Of a DNA stretch of 64,000 nt, positions 10,427-40,487 are shown piece by piece. The translations under genes were made by a program, and so were the position numbers. The stretch lies in NCBI GenBank assembly GCA_965652925.1, contig CBFGXL010000001.1, positions 23,821 to 87,820 of the forward strand, given 5' to 3'. The first letter of the stretch is position 1. Each line of letters starts with the position of its first letter. Below the pieces are notes generated by a model that worked only from the letters and a program-made list of their open reading frames with translations, made no database searches and was not told where the DNA came from. The DNA is from an uncultured bacterium. Its GTDB lineage: Bacteria > Patescibacteriota > Minisyncoccia > Phycocordibacterales > UBA918.

Positions 10427-11662
10427 TTAATCGATAAGTTTCCAGATGCCTTTATCCTCTTCCCCGTCGATCTTGAAGATCGCTATACCTTTAAGGCCAT
10501 ATTCTTTTGCAAGTTCGATCTTCTCTTCGATCGCTCCATCATCACTGTATCCAACGTAGCGTACGGTCACGGTCTGACCAGTTGCATTTGCGTACAAGAG
10601 CGCTTTTGCCGCGGCTTCGTTACCTTTTGTAGTTCCTTTTGGAGTTGGAAGCGCATTGAGCACTTTATACGGAGAATTCTTCGGGAAATATGTGTAGCTG
10701 AGCTCCCCTGCCTTGTTGCGTCCCGGCTCAACATCATATTCTTCTGCAACATCAAGGATGTCAGGAACATTCAGTGCACCAATGCGCTTGTAGTTGCTAT
10801 ACCAGTTAGGTGCAACCGTCACCTCATAGTGATACCCGTAGGTAGGAACGCCAAGCAGTATCTTGTCCTCTGGGATATCTTCAAGCGCAAGTTTAATGAC
10901 CTTCTCCACCCAATCTGCGTCTGAAACAGGGAAATAGGGTTCGCCTGCCTTCGATTCATTGAGCTTCAGGTCAGCCCGCTGCTGGTCATAGGCCATGATC
11001 TCAACGCGGTCGCAGTATTCACCAATCGCCTCATAGTCATTTGCATACTCAAGCACCTTCGGTACTTTCTTATAGAGTGACGTTGGGGGTGTTCGTGCCT
11101 CAACCGTACAGGTCAGCAACTTGTCTTCCTCCTCAAGCTCTTCTTTAAGCTCCTTCAAGAAGAGCGAAAAGTGCTCTTTGGTTGAAGAAAGCTTCTCTTC
11201 ATAGTCAATATCAATGCCATCAAAATCATGTTTCTCTACTTCCTTCATGATATTGCTGATGTGCTTTTTGCGGAGCTCTTTATAGCTTAAGTTTGCATGC
11301 ACGCTTCCACCATCGCTTGTCATTACCGTTGGTATCACAAGAACATCTTTTGAACGTGCAAGCTTGATGAACTTCCTCCATTCAGAAGTTGACATTCCAG
11401 CATTGTCCTTGATCGTCCCGTCACTCTGGAGTGTGTATGAGAACGGAAACACGATATCAAGATCCTTTATATTTTTTGTGGCATCCTTAATCCCCTTGGA
11501 ATCAGCCCAATAAGGTATCCAACCAGCCACCTCAAGTGCAACATCATCATCTTCATCTGAAGCAGCAAATGTCAGTATTGGAAATGAATGAAAAATGATA
11601 AGCAGTCCAAGTGCCACAATAAGCACGTGGAAAAGTACTTTTTTTACTAATGTCATACTCAT
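10427..11662 (-). CDS. Glycoside hydrolase family 18 (chitinase-like) secreted or membrane-anchored protein
   Basis: GH18 catalytic motif FDGIDIDYEE (DxxDxDxE), an N-terminal signal/TM, 411 aa. Confidence 0.8.
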   Translation of the reverse strand: MSMTLVKKVLFHVLIVALGLLIIFHSFPILTFAASDEDDDVALEVAGWIPYWADSKGIKDATKNIKDLDIVFPFSYTLQSDGTIKDNAGMSTSEWRKFIKLARSKDVLVIPTVMTSDGGSVHANLSYKELRKKHISNIMKEVEKHDFDGIDIDYEEKLSSTKEHFSLFLKELKEELEEEDKLLTCTVEARTPPTSLYKKVPKVLEYANDYEAIGEYCDRVEIMAYDQQRADLKLNESKAGEPYFPVSDADWVEKVIKLALEDIPEDKILLGVPTYGYHYEVTVAPNWYSNYKRIGALNVPDILDVAEEYDVEPGRNKAGELSYTYFPKNSPYKVLNALPTPKGTTKGNEAAAKALLYANATGQTVTVRYVGYSDDGAIEEKIELAKEYGLKGIAIFKIDGEEDKGIWKLID

Positions 11663-13369: not shown

Positions 13370-14773
13370 ATGAATCCTACTCACAACCGACGAAGTCGGA
13401 CCGGCGCTTCTGTGCACCGATCCTCTTCACGCAAAGGAAGTTTTTCACGCAATAAAAGCAGTGTCTCTTCCCCATTTACCCACCGATACACTTCTTCAGC
13501 ACCTCGCAAGGAGCACGGCTCTTCTTCTGCTCCACGCAGAGAATTCAGCGCTTCTTCATCGCGTCACGAAAGCGGACGAAAGCCATACCATGGCGGTTCA
13601 AGTCGATCATGGAGTGCGCATCGCCCTTCACGCAACACAAGCAGCAACCGCCGTGGCGGCCGCAAGATGCCGACCTTCGACCCATCGCAGTTCATCAATA
13701 CGAACCCGGTGAACACTGAAGAAACCGTATACGAAGCAAAGCACAAGTTCACTGATTTTGGACTCGATAAGAAGCTTGCATACACTATTACCGAAAGCGG
13801 TATGACCGTGCCAACCCCAATCCAGGACCAGATCATCCCGATCATTCTTAAAGGTCACGATGTCATTGGCTTGGCTGAGACCGGCACTGGAAAGACCGCA
13901 GCGTTTTTGATCCCACTCATTGAGAAAACCCTCAAAGAATATGGGCGTCAGACATTGATCCTGGCACCAACACGCGAACTTGCGATCCAGATCGAAGACG
14001 AACTCCGCAAACTTTCAAAAGGATTTAAGCTCTTCTCAACCATTTGCGTTGGAGGAACAAGCATCCGTCCGCAGATTCAGGGACTTCGCCGCAAGAACCA
14101 CTTCATCATCGGTACGCCAGGACGCGTCTTGGATCTTATTGAACGTGGGAACTTGCGCCCACAGAACATCCGCACGGTAGTACTCGACGAAGCAGACCGT
14201 ATGCTCGACATGGGATTCATCCATGACATGCGGAAGATCCTTGAAGACATTCCGAAGAACCACGAGACGCTCTTCTTTTCTGCAACTATGTCAAAGGAGA
14301 TCGAGAAGCTCGTAAATGACTTCCTCCACGAACCAGTAACCATTTCTGTAAAAAAGAAGGAGGTTACCAATAGCATCCGCCAAGATGTAGTGAAATACGG
14401 AAACCATAATAAATTCGAGACGCTCGTGGAACTTCTTTCAAAAGATGATTTCAAGCGCGTACTTGTCTTCGGAGCGATGAAGCACAGCGTTGAGAAGCTT
14501 TCAAAGGAGCTGACCCATGCTGGCATTGTGTCTGAATCGATCCATGGCAATAAATCCCACGGACAGCGCCAGACTTCTTTGCGTAAATTCAAAAGCGGCA
14601 ATGCGCGGGTATTGGTTGCAACCGACGTTGCAGCCCGTGGCATTCATGTGGATAGCGTCACGCACGTCATCAACTACGACCTCCCGAACACTTTCGAAGA
14701 TTATGTTCACCGCATTGGCCGTACCGGCCGAGGCAAGGAAAAAGGCATCGCACTGACTTTTATCCAGGAGTAA
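13370..14773 (+). CDS. DEAD-box ATP-dependent RNA helicase with an Arg/Ser-rich N-terminal low-complexity tail
   Basis: Q-motif TPIQ, AETGTGKT (motif I), PTRELA, DEAD, SAT, HRIGRTGR (motif VI). The N-terminal ~100 aa are RS/RG-rich (HRSSSRKGSFSRNKSS...). Confidence 0.9.
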   Translation: MNPTHNRRSRTGASVHRSSSRKGSFSRNKSSVSSPFTHRYTSSAPRKEHGSSSAPRREFSASSSRHESGRKPYHGGSSRSWSAHRPSRNTSSNRRGGRKMPTFDPSQFINTNPVNTEETVYEAKHKFTDFGLDKKLAYTITESGMTVPTPIQDQIIPIILKGHDVIGLAETGTGKTAAFLIPLIEKTLKEYGRQTLILAPTRELAIQIEDELRKLSKGFKLFSTICVGGTSIRPQIQGLRRKNHFIIGTPGRVLDLIERGNLRPQNIRTVVLDEADRMLDMGFIHDMRKILEDIPKNHETLFFSATMSKEIEKLVNDFLHEPVTISVKKKEVTNSIRQDVVKYGNHNKFETLVELLSKDDFKRVLVFGAMKHSVEKLSKELTHAGIVSESIHGNKSHGQRQTSLRKFKSGNARVLVATDVAARGIHVDSVTHVINYDLPNTFEDYVHRIGRTGRGKEKGIALTFIQE

Positions 14774-16120: not shown

Positions 16121-16618
16121 CTATCCTCGCGGGCCATCGCCGAACGGGAAACTTTTCAATACCCTTTTGCTCTTGAGTGCATCCCTCGCAACAAGTACCA
16201 TACACGATGCATGATGATGTGTCCCCGGTTTAAACTCTCTGCCCTCAACCGTCGAGACGTGCGGGCGGAAGCCTGCCCCTGCCCAGTGTAGGTTCTTCAC
16301 CGTTCCGCCATTCTCGATAATGCGCATGAAGAGTTGTGTGTGGAGCAGGTCAAGTGCACGATCGCGCACAAGCACATAGACGGGTACGTCGTTTTTGGGA
16401 CCGAAAAGGGCCGGCTCGTGGGAGACAAGGCTGATGTACCCTTCGCGAACATCTGCGGCAAGCGTCGCCAGATCAGCTGCAAAAGGACCTTGTTCAGCCA
16501 CTTTTCCCAGCGTAAACCACTGCATGAGCGTACAATGGAGCGGCAAGGGCTCGTCTGGCCCATATACAGTGCCCTCAGGCATATCTTCAATGGGCAGAAA
16601 AACAAGATACTCAGACAT
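16121..16618 (-). CDS. 2H phosphoesterase superfamily protein (LigT / 2'-5' RNA ligase-like)
   Basis: Two H-x-T/S-x motifs: PLHCTLMQWF and RPHVSTVEG, in a ~165-aa protein. Start taken at MSEYLVFLPIED. Confidence 0.5.
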   Translation of the reverse strand: MSEYLVFLPIEDMPEGTVYGPDEPLPLHCTLMQWFTLGKVAEQGPFAADLATLAADVREGYISLVSHEPALFGPKNDVPVYVLVRDRALDLLHTQLFMRIIENGGTVKNLHWAGAGFRPHVSTVEGREFKPGTHHHASCMVLVARDALKSKRVLKSFPFGDGPRG

Positions 16619-16702
16619 CGGAAGTCTCCAAGGAATCAAGGAACTGTTGCCACACTACCGCAAAGACAGCGCAAAGTCTACGACCTGTGGTACTGTAGCG
16701 CT

Positions 16703-17512
16703 ATGAAGCCATATATTGTGCTCGAGAAGAAGGTCGGAGAAACTCCTTTGGAAGTGCTTGAATCTCATAGAGCGGAGCATCCTGAGCTTATTGGGGTTCC
16801 CATGGCATATGCCGGGCGACTTGACCCAATGGCATCAGGAAAACTCTTGGTACTTTTGGGTGAGGAATGTAAAGTGCAGGAAAAATACCACCATCTCGAT
16901 AAAGAATATGTATTTGAAGTTCTCTTCGGGACAGGCTCAGACTCGGGCGATGTGCTTGGGCTTTTGGAGCTCGGAGGGAAAGGCATTGTTGATGCCCGAA
17001 GCATCAAAGCTGTTTTGAAAAGCCTTACTGGAGAAATCGAACTCCCCTACCCCCACTTCTCTTCAAAGACCGTACAGGGTAAACCCCTCCATACATGGAA
17101 AGTCGAAGGGCGTATTGATGAAGTGACTATCCCAACAAAAAAAACACGTATATATAAGCTCGAACTTTTGGATATACAGTTAAAAACCGGACAGGAAGTG
17201 TATGAATATGCCGCACAAAAAATAGAAACCATCCCCAAAGTGACCGACCAACGGAAGGCTCTCGGCAATGACTTTCGACGTGATGACATACGCGTCTCAT
17301 GGAGACAGTTTCTTGAAGCGAGTGCTGATACGCAATTCACCGTTGCACAACTGCGCTGTATCTGTTCTTCGGGCACGTATATGCGCACACTAGCAGGAGT
17401 GATCGCACAAAGACTGGATACCAAAGGCCTCGCATATGCAATTCACCGGACCCAGATAGGCACCTATATTCACCTTCCGTTTGGATTTGGGTTTTGGACT
17501 AAAATATTTTAA
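16703..17512 (+). CDS. truB: tRNA pseudouridine-55 synthase TruB (short form, no PUA domain)
   Basis: GRLDPMASGKLLVLLGE contains the catalytic Asp motif. The longest ORF's 5' extension (from 16334) overlaps the divergent gene, so the start was set at MKPYIVLEK (ATG 16703). 270 aa. Confidence 0.85.
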   Translation: MKPYIVLEKKVGETPLEVLESHRAEHPELIGVPMAYAGRLDPMASGKLLVLLGEECKVQEKYHHLDKEYVFEVLFGTGSDSGDVLGLLELGGKGIVDARSIKAVLKSLTGEIELPYPHFSSKTVQGKPLHTWKVEGRIDEVTIPTKKTRIYKLELLDIQLKTGQEVYEYAAQKIETIPKVTDQRKALGNDFRRDDIRVSWRQFLEASADTQFTVAQLRCICSSGTYMRTLAGVIAQRLDTKGLAYAIHRTQIGTYIHLPFGFGFWTKIF

Positions 17513-17514
17513 GC

Positions 17515-19497
17515 TCAGTGTTTGCCTAAACTCTGCAGCTGCTTGTATTTACGCAGATAATCATCAACAGTCACCACTAATTCAGCATGACTCCAGATAA
17601 GCGGTGCAGTTGAGAGATGCTCGCCAGTATGCGGATGTATCTGTTCCGGCAATACACCCCCTTTGGTTGCATGGGCACATGTCCACTGCAGTATCTCATA
17701 CGGGCGCTTCAGATCGCTGAGCTTCTTCGCAACAAGAATATGGTATTGGGCCATCCACAGTGTAGTGATCACCCATGGATTTGGACTGCCTGCATCCTGC
17801 AGCGTGTAATAATTGTCCCGCTCATACCGTACATACCCTTCGCTTTGTGAATGTACGCGCAGTTTTTCCTCAACCGTTTTAAATGCTGTCTTGATACGAT
17901 CATCCTCAGCATCCACAACACCAAAATACAATGGGCCAAAAAAACTGCTGAGATCAACCGTCGTGTCATATGTTGCATCCTCTGTTTCAGAAACATGTAT
18001 TTGCTTGATGAACATTTTGATATCGTCGCTGTATAAGTGCTCGAGGATTCCTTCGCGCATGCGTTGCGCCACCGCGCTGTACGTGCGCGCCGATTCTTCC
18101 TTCCCGAGAAGATTTGCAAAGTGAGCGGCAGCAACCAATCCGCCGTACACGCACGAAGCGGTGTATGTTGAAATTCCGAATTTTTCCTCCCAAAGATCAT
18201 ATGAATTTCTCGGGAGCCCATACATTGCCTCAATGAAATCACACAAGAAATTTGCCGCTTTCTCAATAAAAGGATTGTAGAGCGATTCAATGAATTCAAT
18301 GTTCTTGGTGATCTCGTAATGCTGCCACAGAGTAAACAGAGGCAATGCTGTCTCATCTTCTTGGATCGGCAGTTCGGGTACACCATTATGCATCCACGGA
18401 TGCCATGAGCTGCCTAAAGTACCGTCGGCACGGTATTTATGCATGAGATAACCGTCACGCTCAATGCGTTCGCTTAAGAATGTAAAGAAGCGCGCTGAGA
18501 CATCAGTGTAGCCCATGCGGTCAAGCGCATGAGCTACAAAAGCACCATCGCGCGGCCACACGTAACTGTATGTATCACGTCCGTGGTGCAGCATATCCGT
18601 ATCGCTTGAAGCAATGATCGCTCCCCGATTGTCAGTGTGCACCCGGATGGTTGTCAGCGAACGCTTGAAGAGCGTCTGCAGTTCCGATGACAAAAGTGAC
18701 AAATCGCGCTCTTCCTTATCTACCCACGCCTTCCAATAGTTCTTCGTTGAAAGAAGCAGCCTGTCAGGAGATTCTTCCAGCACGTGTGCATTGAGGTCAT
18801 GCACATCAGCAATGGTTTGGCCACAGACCACCCAGTAATCAATTTCAGTATGAGAAAGCGCATCCATTTCGCAGGTAATGCCGATAACAGAATCAACAGA
18901 GCCATGCTCGATCGGATTCTTTTCGAGGACCCCGTCTTGTGCATCATGGTATGTCCCCTCTTTTCCTTCAATCCCGAACAGGCCGATGTTGTAATCAGAA
19001 AAACGCTTCCCTTCATGGAAGGCATTGATCAGGAAGCTGCAGTGACCTTTATAGTGAACGATCGCTCCCACGCGCGGATCATAAAATCCAGTGTCACCTC
19101 TCCGTGACTCGGAAATACGGAATTGTTGAGAGAAAAAAACTTTTATCTCCCGTTTTTCATCGCGCTCATTACCTAAAGTAAATGATCGAATAAAAATATC
19201 TTTTTCATTATGGACCGCATCAGCACTTGAGAGTGTCACTCCAATAGCGTTATTGACTGCATGGAGACTACCCACGACTGTTTCCGCGTCCGAACCCACA
19301 ACAATCTCCCACGAAGGATCATCGAGCCAAAACAATGCACCATCGACATATACACCGATGCGGTGGACGAAATTGCCTGAGGCACCGCTTACATGATTGT
19401 TGTGCCCTACAAATGGAAAATAAAAATCACGAACCTGGCCTTTGTAGTCGAGGCCAACAAGCATATTCCCATTTCCTAAAGTGACGGCGCGAGCCAT
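17515..19497 (-). CDS. Glycoside hydrolase family 15 (glucoamylase / glucodextranase / trehalase-like)
   Basis: GH15 hallmark YSYVWPRDGAFVAHAL, 660 aa with an N-terminal beta-sandwich and a C-terminal (alpha/alpha)6 region. Confidence 0.85.
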   Translation of the reverse strand: MARAVTLGNGNMLVGLDYKGQVRDFYFPFVGHNNHVSGASGNFVHRIGVYVDGALFWLDDPSWEIVVGSDAETVVGSLHAVNNAIGVTLSSADAVHNEKDIFIRSFTLGNERDEKREIKVFFSQQFRISESRRGDTGFYDPRVGAIVHYKGHCSFLINAFHEGKRFSDYNIGLFGIEGKEGTYHDAQDGVLEKNPIEHGSVDSVIGITCEMDALSHTEIDYWVVCGQTIADVHDLNAHVLEESPDRLLLSTKNYWKAWVDKEERDLSLLSSELQTLFKRSLTTIRVHTDNRGAIIASSDTDMLHHGRDTYSYVWPRDGAFVAHALDRMGYTDVSARFFTFLSERIERDGYLMHKYRADGTLGSSWHPWMHNGVPELPIQEDETALPLFTLWQHYEITKNIEFIESLYNPFIEKAANFLCDFIEAMYGLPRNSYDLWEEKFGISTYTASCVYGGLVAAAHFANLLGKEESARTYSAVAQRMREGILEHLYSDDIKMFIKQIHVSETEDATYDTTVDLSSFFGPLYFGVVDAEDDRIKTAFKTVEEKLRVHSQSEGYVRYERDNYYTLQDAGSPNPWVITTLWMAQYHILVAKKLSDLKRPYEILQWTCAHATKGGVLPEQIHPHTGEHLSTAPLIWSHAELVVTVDDYLRKYKQLQSLGKH

Positions 19498-19503
19498 GAG
19501 GTG

Positions 19504-19890
19504 TTACATACTATAATTACGCAGGTGCATCTCCACTATTTTTTGTGCACGCTCCTTCTTCCTGGCAGTACGAAGTGCCTGCGCACACTCACTGTCTCCC
19601 AGCACATGTTCTACCCAGTCAGCGAAATCATTTTTTTCTTTGGTGACGTGATGAATGAATATTTCGTCATCCATAGAGCCGAAAGCGAGCTGCAGATCTG
19701 AGAGGTTTCTGAGAATCTGTCCGTCGCGTGACCAGAAGCATTCGCCATCAATTGCACAGACCATCGCCCGAAAGTCTTTTTTAGGAACTGCTTTTTTGGC
19801 AGCTCCTTTTTTTGCTGTTTTTTTAGCGACGGTCTTTTTTGCCGCTTTTTTTGCTGGTGTGGTCTTGGTTGAAGACGTAGGCATATGCAT
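19504..19890 (-). CDS. Small protein with a histone-H1-like Lys/Ala-rich N-terminus and a globular C-terminal domain
   Basis: MHMPTSSTKTTPAKKAAKKTVAKKTAKKGAAKKAVPKK, then a non-repetitive ~85-aa domain. The first 22 codons overlap the GH57 3' end. The coding strand carries four A6-A7 runs. Confidence 0.45.
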   Translation of the reverse strand: MHMPTSSTKTTPAKKAAKKTVAKKTAKKGAAKKAVPKKDFRAMVCAIDGECFWSRDGQILRNLSDLQLAFGSMDDEIFIHHVTKEKNDFADWVEHVLGDSECAQALRTARKKERAQKIVEMHLRNYSM

Positions 19891-21235
19891 TGCTTAACTT
19901 ACGTGAATAAATGGTTATCAAAGAAGCGACAAAATCAACCGCTTTGCCAAACCAGTCTTTGAGCTGGTGTGCAAACGTCATTTCGTATACCTCCTCCACA
20001 ACACGATCTCCCTCCTTTTCTCTGAGTCGTTTTGCTTCTACTGCATGTTGTACCCTTAATTGTAAATCACACAGTGCATTCATGAAAGCAACATATGCAT
20101 CATATGGGGATTGGTACGGAGAGAAGTATGCATGCACATCTCCATCATTGGACCATTTTGTGCACATGTAGTAGAAGTGATCGGATGTCTGCAGCTTGCG
20201 CCATGTTTCAAGCAACTCTCTGTCTTCAGTGTAGAGCACATCCTTTTCCAGTGCGTAGATGGCCTGTATTGCATCCTTTTGGATATCATTGCCTGTCCAG
20301 GCTGTGAGGTCGCGGTCAGTGTCAGCCCACGTCAGGACACTTGGCACATCAATTTCACCCACAGCGTCATAACTCATGATCGTCTCTGATGGCGTCTTGA
20401 AGGAAGTATCAGGATGCTGTGTGAGCATGTGCGGAAATACCTTCATGAAGTTGAATATGCCGGTGTCTTCCCACTGATGCTCACCAAACGTCTCGTAATC
20501 CATGAAGAGGTTGATGGTATTCCCGTCTCCATGGTGCGCATGGATCCAATTTGCGTACGTTTCGGCCTTCAGCGGATAACTCTCCCATCCCTGATTACCA
20601 AAACGGAATGCCAGATCGTCAGAAAGTTTGTAGTTCTTTAAAAGCACTTTGATACGGTTGCAGCCGACGGGCTTGTAGACATAGTTGGGACTGCGCCAGC
20701 CCAAAACAGGATCCCAACCTTCTGCCATGATGCCCAAGTAGCCATGATCTTCGCACCACTTCGCCAGATCGTTGCGGTACGAAAGTTCCGTGTTGCGAAA
20801 AACGCGGGGAGTGTAGTTAAACAACTTATGTATGCGCTGCGCATGTTGGGCGACCTGCCGCTCGAACTCAGGAACCGAATAAAAGAACGCAAGCGAATGG
20901 TGATAGGTATCAGCAAGTATCTCTACGCGGCCGGTTGCCACCAACTCTTGGAAACTTTCAAGCACATCCGGAGCATACGCTTCAAACTGATCAAGCACCG
21001 TGCCTGAAAAAGAAAGAGCGAACCGAAACTCTTCATGCTCATCCAGAAGTTGCTTGAGCACACGATTCATTGGCCGATATGATTTTTCTGCAACCTTCTC
21101 CACGATCTTTTTGTTATTGAGGTCGCTTTCACTTCCGTCATTGAAGTATTGATTGTCATTTCCGATATCAAATACCCGATATCGCTTGACGCGGTATGGC
21201 TGGTGCACATGAAAATAAGGACAGACCGTGAGCAT
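19823..21235 (-). CDS. Glycoside hydrolase family 57 (alpha-amylase / 4-alpha-glucanotransferase / branching-enzyme type)
   Basis: GH57 signatures CPYFHVHQPYR and MDYETFGEH, 470 aa. Confidence 0.85.
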   Translation of the reverse strand: MLTVCPYFHVHQPYRVKRYRVFDIGNDNQYFNDGSESDLNNKKIVEKVAEKSYRPMNRVLKQLLDEHEEFRFALSFSGTVLDQFEAYAPDVLESFQELVATGRVEILADTYHHSLAFFYSVPEFERQVAQHAQRIHKLFNYTPRVFRNTELSYRNDLAKWCEDHGYLGIMAEGWDPVLGWRSPNYVYKPVGCNRIKVLLKNYKLSDDLAFRFGNQGWESYPLKAETYANWIHAHHGDGNTINLFMDYETFGEHQWEDTGIFNFMKVFPHMLTQHPDTSFKTPSETIMSYDAVGEIDVPSVLTWADTDRDLTAWTGNDIQKDAIQAIYALEKDVLYTEDRELLETWRKLQTSDHFYYMCTKWSNDGDVHAYFSPYQSPYDAYVAFMNALCDLQLRVQHAVEAKRLREKEGDRVVEEVYEMTFAHQLKDWFGKAVDFVASLITIYSRKLSNAYAYVFNQDHTSKKSGKKDRR

Positions 21236-21237
21236 GC

Positions 21238-22449
21238 TTATGTAATGAATTCTACCAAACGCCGGTACAAAGAGATAACTTTAGCGGCAGCATGCTTCCA
21301 GGACAGTCTTTTTATCTCATTTCTCCCTTCGCGAACCAGCTGTTCTCTCAAAACCGGATAGCGAAGCGAGGCGAGTATCTTGTTGGCCATTTCTTCTACA
21401 TCCCAAAAATCAACTTTCAGTACGTGTGATACCACTTCCGAAACTCCAGACTGTTTTGATATGAGTGACGGCGCACCGTGCTGTATGGCTTCCAGTGGCA
21501 CAAGACCAAACGGTTCAGACACTGACGGCATAACCACAAGATCAACACTCTGATACATCCGGTCGCGCTCTTCGTACCACAAGGCTCCTGCAAAAATGAC
21601 ATTATTAGAAAGTCCAAGGGCACCCACCTTGTGCATGATCTGTGCAGTCATGTCTCCCTTGCCTGAGATAACAAACACAACGTTGGGGTCAGTATCAACC
21701 ACTTTCCTCGCCGCCTCGACGAAATAGTCCACCCCTTTTTGAATGGTGATGCGTCCATGATAAAGGACGATCTTTTTGCCCTGTGCTTTTAGTTCGCTCA
21801 ATGCTGGCTCGTGACGCAATGGGTCTTCAACATCACAGCCGTTGTGTACCACTTCCACTTTTTGCGGATCCGCATCGTGTTTGTCTATGATAATGTTCTT
21901 GGTAAAGTTGCTTACCGTCACGATGCAATCGGCCATCGCAAATGCCTCCTTCTCAATCTTGAAAACTTCTGGATCAATATTATCGCTTGCCGCCTGATCA
22001 AACGCTGTTGCATGTACATGGAGCACCAAAGGCTTGCCGGTTGCTTTCTTGGCAGCAACACCAGCAAGGTACGAAGTCCAGTCATGCGCGTGGATGAGGT
22101 CAAACTCTTCTTCTTGTGCAATCTGGGCAGCCTTGTGTGCAAAGGCATGCACTTCTTCAAGGATCGTACGCGAGTAAATCACTCTCCGTCCTGTGGAGTC
22201 ATAAACATCAACACGCGTCTGAGAGCCCAGATATGGAACCAGACCTGAACTCACCTCTCTTGTTTTCACCATCTTCTCGACATCTGCAAAGATAAAACGA
22301 GCATTTCCCTGCACTTTTTGCGAACGTGGAAGTACAAAAATAACCTCAACACCTTCATGGGCGAGTTCACGAGTAAGCCCTTGGCACGCTATTCCAAGGC
22401 CTCCTGTTGTTTCTGGGGGGAAATCCCAGCCAAAGGTAAGTACCTTCAT
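21238..22449 (-). CDS. Glycosyltransferase, glycogen-synthase-like (GT4/GT5 GT-B fold)
   Basis: MKVLTFGWDFPPETTGGLG matches the GS-type nucleotide-sugar binding N-terminus. The C-terminal domain (HGRITIQKGVD...FVISGKG) is GT-B-like. It is adjacent to GH57 and GH15. Confidence 0.8.
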   Translation of the reverse strand: MKVLTFGWDFPPETTGGLGIACQGLTRELAHEGVEVIFVLPRSQKVQGNARFIFADVEKMVKTREVSSGLVPYLGSQTRVDVYDSTGRRVIYSRTILEEVHAFAHKAAQIAQEEEFDLIHAHDWTSYLAGVAAKKATGKPLVLHVHATAFDQAASDNIDPEVFKIEKEAFAMADCIVTVSNFTKNIIIDKHDADPQKVEVVHNGCDVEDPLRHEPALSELKAQGKKIVLYHGRITIQKGVDYFVEAARKVVDTDPNVVFVISGKGDMTAQIMHKVGALGLSNNVIFAGALWYEERDRMYQSVDLVVMPSVSEPFGLVPLEAIQHGAPSLISKQSGVSEVVSHVLKVDFWDVEEMANKILASLRYPVLREQLVREGRNEIKRLSWKHAAAKVISLYRRLVEFIT

Positions 22450-22628
22450 TGTACGTGTAAAACAACACTGCCATGATGCATTTTAGGAAATGTGGTGAGA
22501 GTAGGAAATGCAAGAAGCGCCGCAGTGTTAACCCCAGTCTAGCATGAGCTTTTTCATCAAAACCCCAGTTATACTCTGTTTTTAGGCCATTGACTGACAG
22601 TAATTGCTCTGATACTATTGCCGGCACT

Positions 22629-39170: not shown

Positions 39171-40487
39171 TTAATACGATTTAAGTCTTCGTGCTTTTTC
39201 ATGCTGCCGAATCTTCTCGAGCGCTTTTGCTTCGATCTGCCGAATACGCTCTCGGGTCACTCCAAACTCCTTACCTACCTCTTCCAGTGTGTGGTACGTC
39301 CCGTCAAGAAGACCATGTCGCATCTCGAGAATTTTGCGCTCTTTCTCAGAAAGCGAATCGAGGATCTCCTGGATCTGGTCTGTGAGAATACTATGTGCAA
39401 CTTCCTGATCGGGAGACGTGATCTTATCATCAGCAATGAAGTCAGAGAGTCGCGATCGATCATCGTCATCCCCAATAGGAAGTTCAAGTGAGATAGTGTC
39501 TTGGCTGATCTTCTCGATCTGATAGATCTTATCAACTTCTACTCCCATTTCTGTAGCTATCTCCTCAGGCATAGGGTCTCGACCGAGATCCTGTGAAAGT
39601 CGGCGGGACACCTGCTTATACTTCGCCATGGTTTCCACCATGTGCACTGGGATACGGATAGTGCGTGACTGGTCAGCAAGCGCACGAGTGATTGCCTGGC
39701 GGATCCACCAGGTTGCATAAGTCGAGAATTTAAATCCCTTTGTATGGTCGAACTTATCAACTGCTTTAAAGAGACCAAGGTTCCCCTCTTGAATGAGGTC
39801 AAGCAACGTAAGATCAGGACTTCGCCCGACATATTTCTTTGCGATCGACACCACAAGACGGAGGTTCGCACGTGCAAGCAAGTTACGTGCTTCCTCATCA
39901 CCTTCGACGATGCGTTTTGCAAGTGTACGTTCTTCTAGCGCCGTCAGAAGCGGATACTGCCCGATCTCACGAAGATACATCTGTATAGAGTCATAGCCGC
40001 TTTCATTGCGCTTGTATGAGTTTTTGCGTTCGAGCAATTCAACACTCGGGTCTTCTCCCAGCATACCCCCGCTTTGAAGGACATCAATTCCTGCCACACC
40101 AAAACGTTCGTACATCTCATCAAGAAATGGTACGTCTTTTTCTATCTGTGGAAAGTATTTGAGGATCTCGTCGAACGTGATGTACCCTCGCTCTCTACCT
40201 AACCGCATCAATTCTCCAGCCTTTGCCTCGAGTATCTTCTGATTTTTGGTTAATTTCAGCGGTGCTGCCTGCTTCTTAACTGCCGCCTTTTTAGGGGCAG
40301 CTTTCTTCACCGGAGCTTTCTTTGCTGATTTCTTTACACTTATTTTCTTCCCACTTTTTTTTGGCTTTGTTTTGTTGGCTTTTGCAGTATTTTTAACTGC
40401 TTTCTTAGCCACTTTTTTTATTGCCTTTTTAACGACTTTTTTGGTCGTTTTTTTTGTTGTTTTTTTGGTTGCCTTTTTTGCAGCCAT
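39171..40487 (-). CDS. rpoD: RNA polymerase sigma-70 (primary sigma factor) with an ~80-aa N-terminal Lys-rich tail
   Basis: Region 2 ([31 protein letters not shown]), region 3, and region 4 ([24 protein letters not shown]). The N-terminus is [25 protein letters not shown]... Confidence 0.9.

What the first reader, a model, noticed from the sequence alone, without database searches (positions are those of the whole stretch)
17515..22449. Compact alpha-glucan metabolism cluster with an embedded Lys-rich small gene
GH15, GH57 and a glycogen-synthase-like GT are co-oriented, an arrangement seen in archaea, Thermotogae and CPR rather than classical GlgABCP. Between GH15 and GH57 lies a 128-aa ORF with a histone-like Lys/Ala N-terminus and an unknown C-terminal domain. 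It may be a regulatory, DNA-binding or polysaccharide-associated protein of the cluster.
Basis: partly seen in the sequence, partly recalled or inferred. Interest (0 to 1): 0.5.

Follow-up and report, generated by a model that had tools for sequence, protein, structure and literature searches.

The report
Small OrfY-like partner of glycogen operon
A four-gene operon for making and breaking a glycogen-like sugar polymer in an ultra-small (CPR) bacterium carries a real, conserved small gene whose folded part belongs to the uncharacterised OrfY/DUF5752 family. It most likely acts as a non-enzymatic helper or tether for the sugar-polymer enzymes, not as an enzyme.

Summary
On the minus strand a GlgA-like glycosyltransferase (21238-22449), a GH57 (19823-21235), a 126/128-aa ORF (19504-19884/19890) and a GH15 (17515-19497) form one tightly packed operon.

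The enzymes make up the "archaeal-type" glycogen set (GlgA + GH57 AmyA + GH15 Gaa), which is ordinary.

The small ORF is a genuine gene:
- Its family has hundreds of members.
- 67 of 78 informative species-level loci from CPR bacteria and DPANN archaea place it directly after GH57.

Its parts:
- Residues 1-39 form a disordered tail of net charge +12, rich in Lys.
- Residues 40-128 form an acidic domain of one beta-hairpin and five helices. This is a single repeat of the DUF5752/OrfY superfamily. The only structural neighbour is PDB 4CSO, whose depositors labelled it "transcription factor"; its function is untested as far as I can tell.

The gene is optional. Only 17 of 62 GH57-anchored clusters have it. 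Its appendages vary by lineage: a Lys-rich N-tail, a C-terminal membrane helix, or a C-terminal FWSFLM motif. DPANN loci carry tandem paralogues, twice with a MinD/ParA ATPase.

My best reading (confidence about 0.4) is a dimeric adaptor that tethers or regulates the GlgA-GH57 module. The main rival is an OrfY-type DNA-binding regulator.

It is a new variant of a known but uncharacterised kind, of moderate interest.

The parts
22450..22544 (-). Putative promoter and about 80-nt 5' leader of the operon. It has an extended -10-like TGCTAGACT (22544-22536). AACACTGC (22529-22522) can pair with GCAGTGTT (22471-22464) just upstream of the GT start codon.
   Evidence: Sequence read. Most related loci show a TGnTAnnnT motif followed by a 5'-terminal stem of different sequence. 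The fold z-score in the window is only -1.36. There is no Rfam match. This part is inferred, not shown.
21238..22449 (-). GlgA-like GT-B glycosyltransferase, 403 aa (archaeal-type small glycogen synthase, GT4/GT5).
   Evidence: Pfam Glycos_transf_1, Glyco_transf_4 and Glyco_transf_5. TIGR02149 glgA_Coryne scores 123 bits, below its cut-off. The best solved relatives are GlgM (6TVP) and, aligned over the full length, Pyrococcus abyssi GlgA (2BIS/3FRO).
19823..21235 (-). GH57 enzyme, 470 aa. The conserved core is about 396 aa and is followed by a poorly conserved 74-aa C-terminal extension whose end overlaps the small gene.
   Evidence: Pfam Glyco_hydro_57, 227.8 bits. E150 aligns with the catalytic nucleophile E123 of the T. 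litoralis 4-alpha-glucanotransferase (the identity of E123 is from my own knowledge). FRNTEL and DYETFGEHQW are invariant in 9 diverse homologues. The core length comes from comparing homologues.
19774..19890 (-). Small gene, N-terminal part (residues 1-39): a disordered Lys/Ala/Thr-rich tail of net charge +12. The likely true start is the second ATG at 19884. The tail is encoded partly by A7 (19852-19846) and A6 (19840-19835) runs inside the overlap with GH57.
   Evidence: AF2 pLDDT is below 50 for residues 1-31. The MPT(K/S) N-terminus and a Lys-rich tail of 0-85 aa occur in 85 of 86 close homologues. The 126-aa form is the product on record, on 26 contigs.
19507..19773 (-). Small gene, conserved domain (residues 40-128): one beta-hairpin plus five helices. 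It is acidic (net -3) and carries the motif H-x5-K-N-D-F-A-D-W-V-E. It is one repeat of the DUF5752/OrfY superfamily.
17515..19497 (-). GH15 glucoamylase-like enzyme, 660 aa. It is the last gene of the operon and abuts the convergent truB gene.
   Evidence: Pfam Glyco_hydro_15. TIGR01577 oligosaccharide amylase scores 336 bits over the full length, below its cut-off. PDB relatives are the bacterial glucoamylase 1LF6 and a dextran dextrinase.

Best explanation
I call the small protein X. It is a non-catalytic accessory protein of an archaeal-type alpha-glucan (glycogen) operon, GlgA-like GT -> GH57 -> X -> GH15.

Shown:
- X is a real, conserved gene.
- Its folded part is one repeat of the OrfY/DUF5752 fold.
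- It is locked in position directly downstream of GH57 across CPR bacteria and DPANN archaea.
- It is dispensable for the cluster as such.
- Its appendages change with lineage.

Inferred:
- The acidic OrfY-like domain pairs up. Pairing would be with itself where there is one gene, or between paralogues where there are two, which would mimic the two-repeat OrfY.
- The domain docks onto the GlgA-GH57 synthesis module, either on the enzyme or on the nascent glucan.
- The variable appendage fixes the assembly to a cellular surface. In this window the appendage is a +12 Lys-rich disordered tail, which would bind a polyanion such as nucleoid DNA, RNA or an acidic membrane. In other lineages it is a C-terminal membrane helix or a hydrophobic FWSFLM end.

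The net effect would be to localise or modulate glucan synthesis. It would not catalyse anything or read a DNA sequence.
For: 1. Gene reality and family size.
2. Synteny. Of 80 species-representative loci found through X, 67 have GH57 -> X on the same strand (55 labelled bacterial, 12 labelled archaeal). One has GT -> X and two are truncated. Flanking genes differ between these loci, so this is not plain local synteny.
3. Tight coupling in the window: a 62-68 nt overlap with GH57 and a 6-nt gap to GH15.
4. Appendages on 88 non-redundant GH57-adjacent X proteins: 60 have a Lys-rich N-tail, 7 end in PKFWSFLM, 4 have a predicted C-terminal TM helix and 16 have none.
5. DPANN loci carry two tandem paralogues after GH57, in some loci one with a Lys tail and one TM-anchored. 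Loci L051 and L084 insert a MinD/ParA/BcsQ-like ATPase between the two paralogues.
7. Other superfamily members are fused to coiled coils, TM helices, or KaiC or HerA ATPases. This is the profile of an interaction module.
8. Membrane-bound and soluble glycogen fractions are measured separately in S. acidocaldarius, and its amyA and glgA are both required for synthesis (PMC8158581).
Against: - There is no direct evidence of binding to GH57, to GT or to glucan.
- Both apparent GH57-X fusions are unreliable. The L081 fusion depends on the length of an A7 homopolymer. The P0321 fusion lies on a contig that also has a split GT gene and needs three frame changes in A-runs.
- X is absent from 45 of 62 informative GT-GH57-GH15 clusters, and nothing equivalent fills the gap there. 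The enzymes therefore work without it.
- The depositors labelled the only solved relative a transcription factor.
- The only other Lys-tailed protein in the window is the sigma-70 factor, a DNA-binding protein.
- TM-anchored forms are few (4) and rest on a hydropathy threshold only.
Confidence: 0.4

Rival explanations
1. X is an OrfY-type transcription regulator. The Lys-rich tail, together with the basic last helix, binds DNA. The OrfY-like domain dimerises and perhaps senses a sugar. X would then control its own operon.
For: - The closest solved structure, 4CSO, is named 'OrfY protein, transcription factor'.
- The tail is highly basic (+12 here, median +16 in the family) and resembles histone H1-like tails. 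HC2 hits appear in 3 of 27 members and there is a weak Rv3852 hit.
- The last helix has net charge +5.
- The only other Lys-tailed ORF in the window is sigma-70.
- Being optional within the cluster fits a regulator.
Against: - The conserved domain is acidic.
- 28 of 88 orthologues lack the tail. Of these, 4 have a C-terminal TM helix, 7 end in FWSFLM and 16 carry no appendage.
- No conserved operator-like sequence is visible upstream of the GT gene across loci that carry X. Only a -10 element and stems of varying sequence are seen.
- The gene sits in the middle of the operon.
- I could not find any experimental basis for the 'transcription factor' label.
Confidence: 0.25
2. X is a ligand-binding regulatory or glucan-binding module. 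The invariant aromatic and acidic residues (F52, W53, H81, D88, F89, W92, D99) would form a site for alpha-glucan, a sugar or a sugar nucleotide. Through it X would modulate the balance between synthesis (GT, GH57) and degradation (GH15), which are made from one transcript.
For: - The invariant Trp/Phe/His/Asp set is the kind of residue mix found in sugar-binding sites.
- Synthetic and degradative enzymes are co-encoded, which invites post-translational control.
- X always travels with sugar-polymer enzymes.
Against: - The NDF-x-x-W motif sits at a helix start, and most invariant residues are hydrophobic, which fits a structural core just as well.
- All-helical carbohydrate-binding domains are unusual.
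- The same repeat occurs next to KaiC or HerA ATPases with no sugar enzymes nearby.
- No ligand evidence is available.
Confidence: 0.12
3. X is a general nucleoid or RNA-associated basic protein that merely sits in this operon and has no functional link to it.
For: The tail composition is histone-like. Basic low-complexity extensions occur on other proteins of this genome, namely sigma-70 and a DEAD-box helicase.
Against: The GH57 -> X adjacency holds in 67 of 78 informative loci across two domains of life while the flanking genes change. Tail-less orthologues keep the position.
Confidence: 0.05

Closest known systems
OrfY of Thermoproteus tenax (PDB 4CSO) / Pfam DUF5752 (PF19027)
   Different: OrfY and the Pfam model (208 positions) contain two tandem repeats in one chain, whereas X has one. 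X itself scores 17.5 bits against a cut-off of 23. X carries a Lys-rich disordered tail. Its neighbours are GH57, GlgA and GH15. The function of OrfY is not established in anything I could read.
Archaeal-type glycogen gene set (S. acidocaldarius amyA-glgA and glgC-gaa-glgX; PMC8158581)
   Same: A small GlgA-type synthase sits next to a GH57-type 'alpha-amylase', and a GH15-type glucoamylase serves as the degradative enzyme. In Sulfolobus both amyA and glgA are needed to accumulate glycogen. The mapping of amyA to GH57 and gaa to GH15 is my inference.
   Different: Here there are four genes in one operon in the order GT-GH57-X-GH15. The window has no glgC, glgX or glgP. The paper does not list an X-like gene in the Sulfolobus cluster. 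The GH57 here is a minimal form of about 396 aa, far from solved GH57 enzymes (E about 1e-4 to 1e-7).
Histone H1-like Lys/Ala-rich tails of bacterial DNA-binding proteins (Chlamydia HC2, PF07382; mycobacterial Rv3852/H-NS-like)
   Same: Composition and charge of residues 1-39. Three of 27 family members hit HC2, and the window protein weakly hits Rv3852_fam.
   Different: The matches are compositional only. The tail varies from 0 to 85 aa and is replaced by other appendages in other lineages. No DNA binding has been tested.
MinD/ParA-type positioning systems and their partner proteins (for example BcsQ in cellulose synthesis) - functional analogy only
   Same: Two DPANN loci place a MinD/ParA/BcsQ-like ATPase between two X paralogues inside the GT-GH57-...-GH15 cluster. 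From my own knowledge, partner proteins of such ATPases often carry basic disordered N-termini.
   Different: No such ATPase is in the window or in the other roughly 160 loci. There is no sequence relationship between X and known partner proteins.

Membership tests
DUF5752 / OrfY superfamily (PF19027; PDB 4CSO) | Scores above the Pfam gathering cut-off (23 bits) for PF19027 | tested here: not met
   The window protein scores 17.5 bits, E 0.0027, matching only profile positions 55-80. Eleven of 27 close homologues give sub-threshold hits. Single-repeat DPANN orthologues next to GH57 do pass, at 25.8-30.2 bits, as do two-repeat relatives found with the X profile.
DUF5752 / OrfY superfamily (PF19027; PDB 4CSO) | Signature helix H-x(5-7)-N-D-F-x-x-W followed by L-x-D-x-x-L-A | tested here: met
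   H81, N87, D88, F89, W92, L97 and D99 are invariant or nearly so. They align with TNDFARWVGEELNDDDLA of 4CSO.
DUF5752 / OrfY superfamily (PF19027; PDB 4CSO) | Three-dimensional fold like OrfY | tested here: met
DUF5752 / OrfY superfamily (PF19027; PDB 4CSO) | Two tandem repeats in one polypeptide | tested here: not met
   X has one repeat. OrfY shows two NDF-x-x-W stretches, at residues 51-87 and 166-190. DPANN loci supply a second repeat as a separate tandem gene.
DUF5752 / OrfY superfamily (PF19027; PDB 4CSO) | Acts as a transcription factor (depositors' label) | not testable with these tools
   No paper on OrfY or DUF5752 is in the library. A fragment query for the T. tenax protein found nothing.
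Archaeal-type glycogen cluster (GlgA + GH57 AmyA + GH15 Gaa) | GT-B glycogen-synthase-like transferase adjacent to and co-oriented with a GH57 | tested here: met
   The GT -> GH57 order is kept in nearly all of the 160 related loci.
Archaeal-type glycogen cluster (GlgA + GH57 AmyA + GH15 Gaa) | GH57 keeps its catalytic nucleophile Glu and acid/base Asp | tested here: met
   E150 aligns to E123 of 1K1W. D246 in DYETFGEH is invariant. The assignment of D246 as acid/base rests on the known HDDGEKFG motif of GH57, which I recall from my own knowledge.
Archaeal-type glycogen cluster (GlgA + GH57 AmyA + GH15 Gaa) | The product is intracellular glycogen, and the GH57 acts in synthesis (branching or trimming) | not testable with these tools
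   This rests only on analogy with S. acidocaldarius genetics. The NCBIfam model for the GH57 branching enzyme matches at only E 0.0085.
Histone H1-like / HC2 nucleoid proteins | Homology beyond Lys/Ala composition | tested here: not met
   Only low-complexity matches are found. The tail is unalignable and variable in length.

The most novel reading that the evidence does not exclude
Single-repeat OrfY/DUF5752 proteins would be a previously unrecognised class of organisers for storage-polysaccharide synthesis in ultra-small cells (CPR bacteria and DPANN archaea). They would dimerise, dock onto the GlgA-GH57 module or its glucan, and pin it to the membrane or nucleoid through interchangeable anchors: a poly-Lys tail, a tail-anchor TM helix, or an FWSFLM end. 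In some lineages a MinD/ParA ATPase would help. This would give glycogen a defined subcellular position. A further twist is that the A7/A6 runs in the GH57-X overlap could let slippage produce some covalent GH57-X fusion protein.
Probability: 0.2. Interest if true: 0.65.

Novelty: new variant of a known kind. Interest (0 to 1): 0.4.

Why it matters
MAG studies usually read GH57 and GH15 genes of CPR and DPANN organisms as evidence of starch or amylose degradation (PMC9868632, PMC11606122). Here they sit in one operon with a glycogen-synthase-like transferase, as in Sulfolobus, where amyA is required for glycogen synthesis. This points to internal storage-glucan turnover instead.

The small gene adds a conserved, lineage-specific, non-enzymatic component to that module. 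It also gives the large DUF5752/OrfY family its first recurrent genomic association. The family has more than 4000 clusters at 50% identity, and no paper in the searched library names it. If the tether or adaptor idea is right, it would show how minimal cells organise a storage polymer, and it would give a testable function for OrfY-like proteins.

Tried and rejected
1. **Spurious ORF, or true start at Met43.** Rejected. Position 43 is Leu in most homologues. The MPT(K/S) start and an open frame through the tail are conserved. The 126-aa form is on record on 26 contigs.
3. **GH57-X fusion as proof of physical interaction.** Withdrawn. The L081 fusion hinges on an A7 run. The P0321 fusion lies on a contig that also has a split GT gene and needs three frame switches in A-runs.
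4. **A conserved operator upstream of the operon.** None was found.
5. **Rfam families in the region.** Nothing near a gathering score.
6. **Literature on OrfY or DUF5752.** Six searches and four direct look-ups returned nothing usable.
7. **Genomic context of T. tenax OrfY.** Not obtainable.
8. **Fold search of the AlphaFold database (afdb50).** The library was not available.
9. **Other glycogen genes or a ParA-like ATPase in the window.** None.
Full report
**Observation**

The minus strand of the window carries four tightly packed ORFs:
- a 403-aa glycosyltransferase (21238-22449);
- a 470-aa GH57 (19823-21235);
- a 128-aa ORF (19504-19890);
- a 660-aa GH15 (17515-19497).

Pfam and NCBIfam confirm the enzyme families. 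The GT-GH57 gap is 2 nt and the X-GH15 gap is 6 nt. The small ORF, here called X, overlaps the 3' end of GH57 by 68 nt.

The family consensus N-terminus is MPT(K/S), and the product on record in public assemblies is the 126-aa form starting at the second ATG, 19884. With that start the overlap is 62 nt.

Upstream, a strong terminator (22838-22811) follows the class I aldolase gene, and rpmG lies on the other strand. The four genes therefore have their own promoter region. Downstream, GH15 abuts the convergent truB gene. The window holds no glgC, pgm, glgP or glgX.

**The enzymes are ordinary**

- The GT aligns over its full length with the small archaeal glycogen synthase of Pyrococcus abyssi and with mycobacterial GlgM.
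- The GH57 keeps the nucleophile Glu. E150 aligns to E123 of the T. litoralis enzyme. It also keeps an invariant DYETFGEHQW block. Its conserved core is only about 396 aa and is remote from solved GH57 enzymes.
- The GH15 resembles bacterial and archaeal glucoamylases.
- In S. acidocaldarius, amyA and glgA are co-transcribed and both are needed for glycogen accumulation, while gaa is degradative (PMC8158581).

The window operon is that archaeal-type set in a CPR (Patescibacteria, Paceibacteria/Kaiserbacteria-like) genome. The taxon is judged from the labels of related loci.

**X is a real gene**

- A single-sequence search gave 186 homologues and a profile search 636.
- An exhaustive HMMER search gave 4479 representatives at E<=1e-3 and 2383 at E<=1e-10.
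- Against a 94%-identical relative (L007), differences in the domain fall mostly on third codon positions. Indels in the tail keep the frame.
- Position 43, where some gene callers start an 86-aa product, is Leu in most homologues. The tail is therefore translated.

**Anatomy of X**

Residues 1-39 are Lys/Ala/Thr-rich with net charge +12 and are predicted disordered, with pLDDT below 50.

Residues 40-128 are modelled confidently (pLDDT 84-94 from residue 61) as a beta-hairpin plus five helices. Invariant residues are F52, W53, G57, L66, H81, D88, F89, W92, L97 and D99.

The domain is acidic. Its median net charge is -3 and its pI 5.75. The first 62 residues carry -8 and the last helix +5.

**Family assignment**

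- The window protein hits PF19027 (DUF5752) below threshold, at 17.5 against 23 bits.
- The X profile finds PDB 4CSO, OrfY of Thermoproteus tenax, at E 4.4e-4, aligning the NDF-x-x-W helix. OrfY has two such repeats.
- More distant relatives reached from X pass the Pfam cut-off.

X is therefore a divergent single-repeat member of the OrfY/DUF5752 superfamily. Other members are two-repeat proteins, often with coiled coils or TM helices, or fused to or adjacent to KaiC- or HerA-type ATPases. No DNA-binding fold is detected. No paper in the library mentions DUF5752 or OrfY, so the depositors' "transcription factor" label could not be evaluated.

**Context, anchored on X**

I examined 80 loci from species-representative genomes by tblastn and HMM.

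| Arrangement | Loci |
|---|---|
| GH57 -> X on the same strand | 67 (55 labelled bacterial, 12 labelled archaeal: Woese-, Pace-, Aenigm-, Nanoarchaeota) |
| GT -> X | 1 |
| Truncated | 2 |
| Other settings | 10 |

Most of the 67 also have the GT upstream. GH15 follows in 45 of them. The other settings include tandem paralogues beside KaiC-like ATPases and large multidomain proteins. Flanking genes vary, so the adjacency is specific. One caveat applies: the scan pattern NDFA[DNE]W[VI]E favours this subfamily.

**Context, anchored on GH57**

Eighty metagenome loci carry this GH57 subfamily. Of these, 62 have enough downstream sequence to judge.
- X is present in 17 of the 62.
- It is absent in 45, where GH15 usually follows GH57 within tens of bases.
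- Larger gaps hold unrelated genes.

X is thus an optional, lineage-specific insertion. It is not an obligatory subunit, and it is not a replacement for a missing GH57 domain.

**Appendages**

I classified 88 non-redundant GH57-adjacent X proteins.

| Appendage | Proteins |
|---|---|
| Lys-rich N-tail | 60 |
| C-terminal PKFWSFLM | 7 |
| Predicted C-terminal TM helix (L054, L059, L070, L072) | 4 |
| None | 16 |
| Apparent fusion to GH57 (L081) | 1 |

Several DPANN loci have two tandem X paralogues after GH57. In L054, L059 and L072 the first is Lys-tailed and the second TM-anchored. In L051 and L084 a MinD/ParA/BcsQ-like ATPase lies between the two paralogues.

Both apparent GH57-X fusions are unreliable:
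- L081 depends on an A7 run at the junction.
- P0321 is a same-species variant that needs three frame switches in A-runs. It lies on a contig whose GT gene is also split.

**Interpretation**

The constant part is an acidic OrfY-like module that always travels with GH57 and GT. The variable part looks like a set of alternative anchors. This fits an adaptor or tether best: a likely dimer that docks on the glucan-synthesis module and fixes or modulates it at a polyanionic surface or membrane. I put this at about 0.4.

The main rival, at about 0.25, is an OrfY-type DNA-binding regulator.
- For it: the PDB label, the basic tail and last helix, the parallel with the sigma-70 tail, and the optional presence of the gene.
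- Against it: the acidic core, the tail-less and TM-anchored orthologues, the lack of a DNA-binding fold, the mid-operon position, and the absence of a conserved upstream motif.

A ligand- or glucan-binding role (0.12) and an unrelated nucleoid protein (0.05) remain possible. None of these was tested biochemically.

**Novelty and score**

The cluster is known biology. X is a new variant of a known but uncharacterised family: one repeat, a Lys-rich tail, and embedding in a glycogen operon. It also gives that family its first recurrent genomic association. Interest is 0.4. The most novel surviving reading is a polysaccharide-organising adaptor class in ultra-small cells, with possible slippage-made GH57-X fusions. 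I give it a probability of about 0.2 and an interest of about 0.65 if true.

Noticed in passing
window 22450-22544 (minus strand); also L003, L007, L010, L013, L014, L019, L029, L031, L042 and others upstream of the GT gene: After an extended -10-like TGnTAnnnT, the inferred leader begins with a stem. Its 5' end pairs with a segment 15-20 nt upstream of the ATG. The paired sequences differ between loci: AACACTGC/GCAGTGTT here, GTAATCAC/GTGATTAC in L010, and GTAATCGCC/GGCGGTTAC in L013. In 24 hand-picked leaders, 6.9 of the first 8 nt are paired against 3.3 in shuffles, and the mean z-score is -1.36. The window alone gives z -1.36, which is not significant. There is no Rfam match, and the leaders are too divergent to align. 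The subset was selected by eye and the transcription start is inferred.
   Followed up: partly
window 39171-40487 (minus strand): The housekeeping sigma-70 factor (Pfam regions 1.1 to 4) carries an N-terminal Lys-rich tail, [32 protein letters not shown], much like that of X. It is the only other ORF of at least 120 aa in the window with 13 or more Lys in any 30 residues.
   Followed up: partly
window 19823-19890, especially the A7 run 19852-19846 and the A6 run 19840-19835: The GH57/X overlap contains homopolymer A runs, and the X frame is +1 relative to GH57. Losing one A in the A7 run, or a +1 ribosomal slip on it, would join GH57 to X. A same-species 578-aa 'fusion' (P0321) exists, but it needs three frame switches and lies on a contig whose GT gene is also split, so it is probably an assembly error.
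   Followed up: partly
L081 5777-7249 (Aenigmatarchaeota MAG QMZV01000004.1): A single 490-aa ORF joins a GH57 core (52% identical to the window's) to an X domain (35% identical, E 4e-17). The junction, AATAAAAAAATAAAAACTAATTATATG, contains an A7 run. One fewer A would give the usual arrangement of a stop followed by a separate start, so the fusion may be an artefact.
   Followed up: yes
L051 2802-4281 and L084 5663-7234; also L054, L059, L072, L078: DPANN clusters carry two tandem X paralogues after GH57. In L054, L059 and L072 the first has a Lys-rich N-tail and the second a C-terminal TM helix. In L051 and L084 a MinD/ParA/BcsQ-like P-loop ATPase sits between the two paralogues, giving GT-GH57-X1-ATPase-X2-GH15.
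   Followed up: partly
L062 6636-9698; P0312: Away from sugar genes, DUF5752-repeat proteins occur as three tandem paralogues beside two KaiC-like ATPases (L062). They also occur fused to a KaiC domain (P0312) or to a HerA-like ATPase with CarboxypepD_reg repeats (P0277).
   Followed up: partly
L055, L061, L067, L068, L073, L080, L082 (X orthologues): Tail-less X orthologues of another lineage end in a conserved hydrophobic C-terminus...PKFWSFLM. Its meaning is unknown; it could be a membrane-binding or a docking motif.
   Followed up: no
window 13370-14773 (plus strand): A DEAD-box helicase carries an Arg/Ser-rich low-complexity N-terminal extension of about 100 aa. The relative in L005 is also annotated DEAD/Helicase_C.
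   Followed up: no
window 16334-17512 (plus strand): The listed 392-aa ORF for TruB starts at a TTG far upstream. The TruB_N domain begins at residue 158, and relatives are 269-273 aa long, so the real start is probably near residue 125.
   Followed up: no
L105 2482-2987 and L125 2738-3224: In some X-less GT-GH57-GH15 clusters, the gap between GH57 and GH15 holds pairs of small ORFs that look like toxin-antitoxin modules. This is judged from their sequences by eye only.
   Followed up: no
window 10427-11662 (minus strand): A GH18 (chitinase-like) protein with an N-terminal hydrophobic segment is the only other glycoside hydrolase found among the window ORFs scanned.
   Followed up: no
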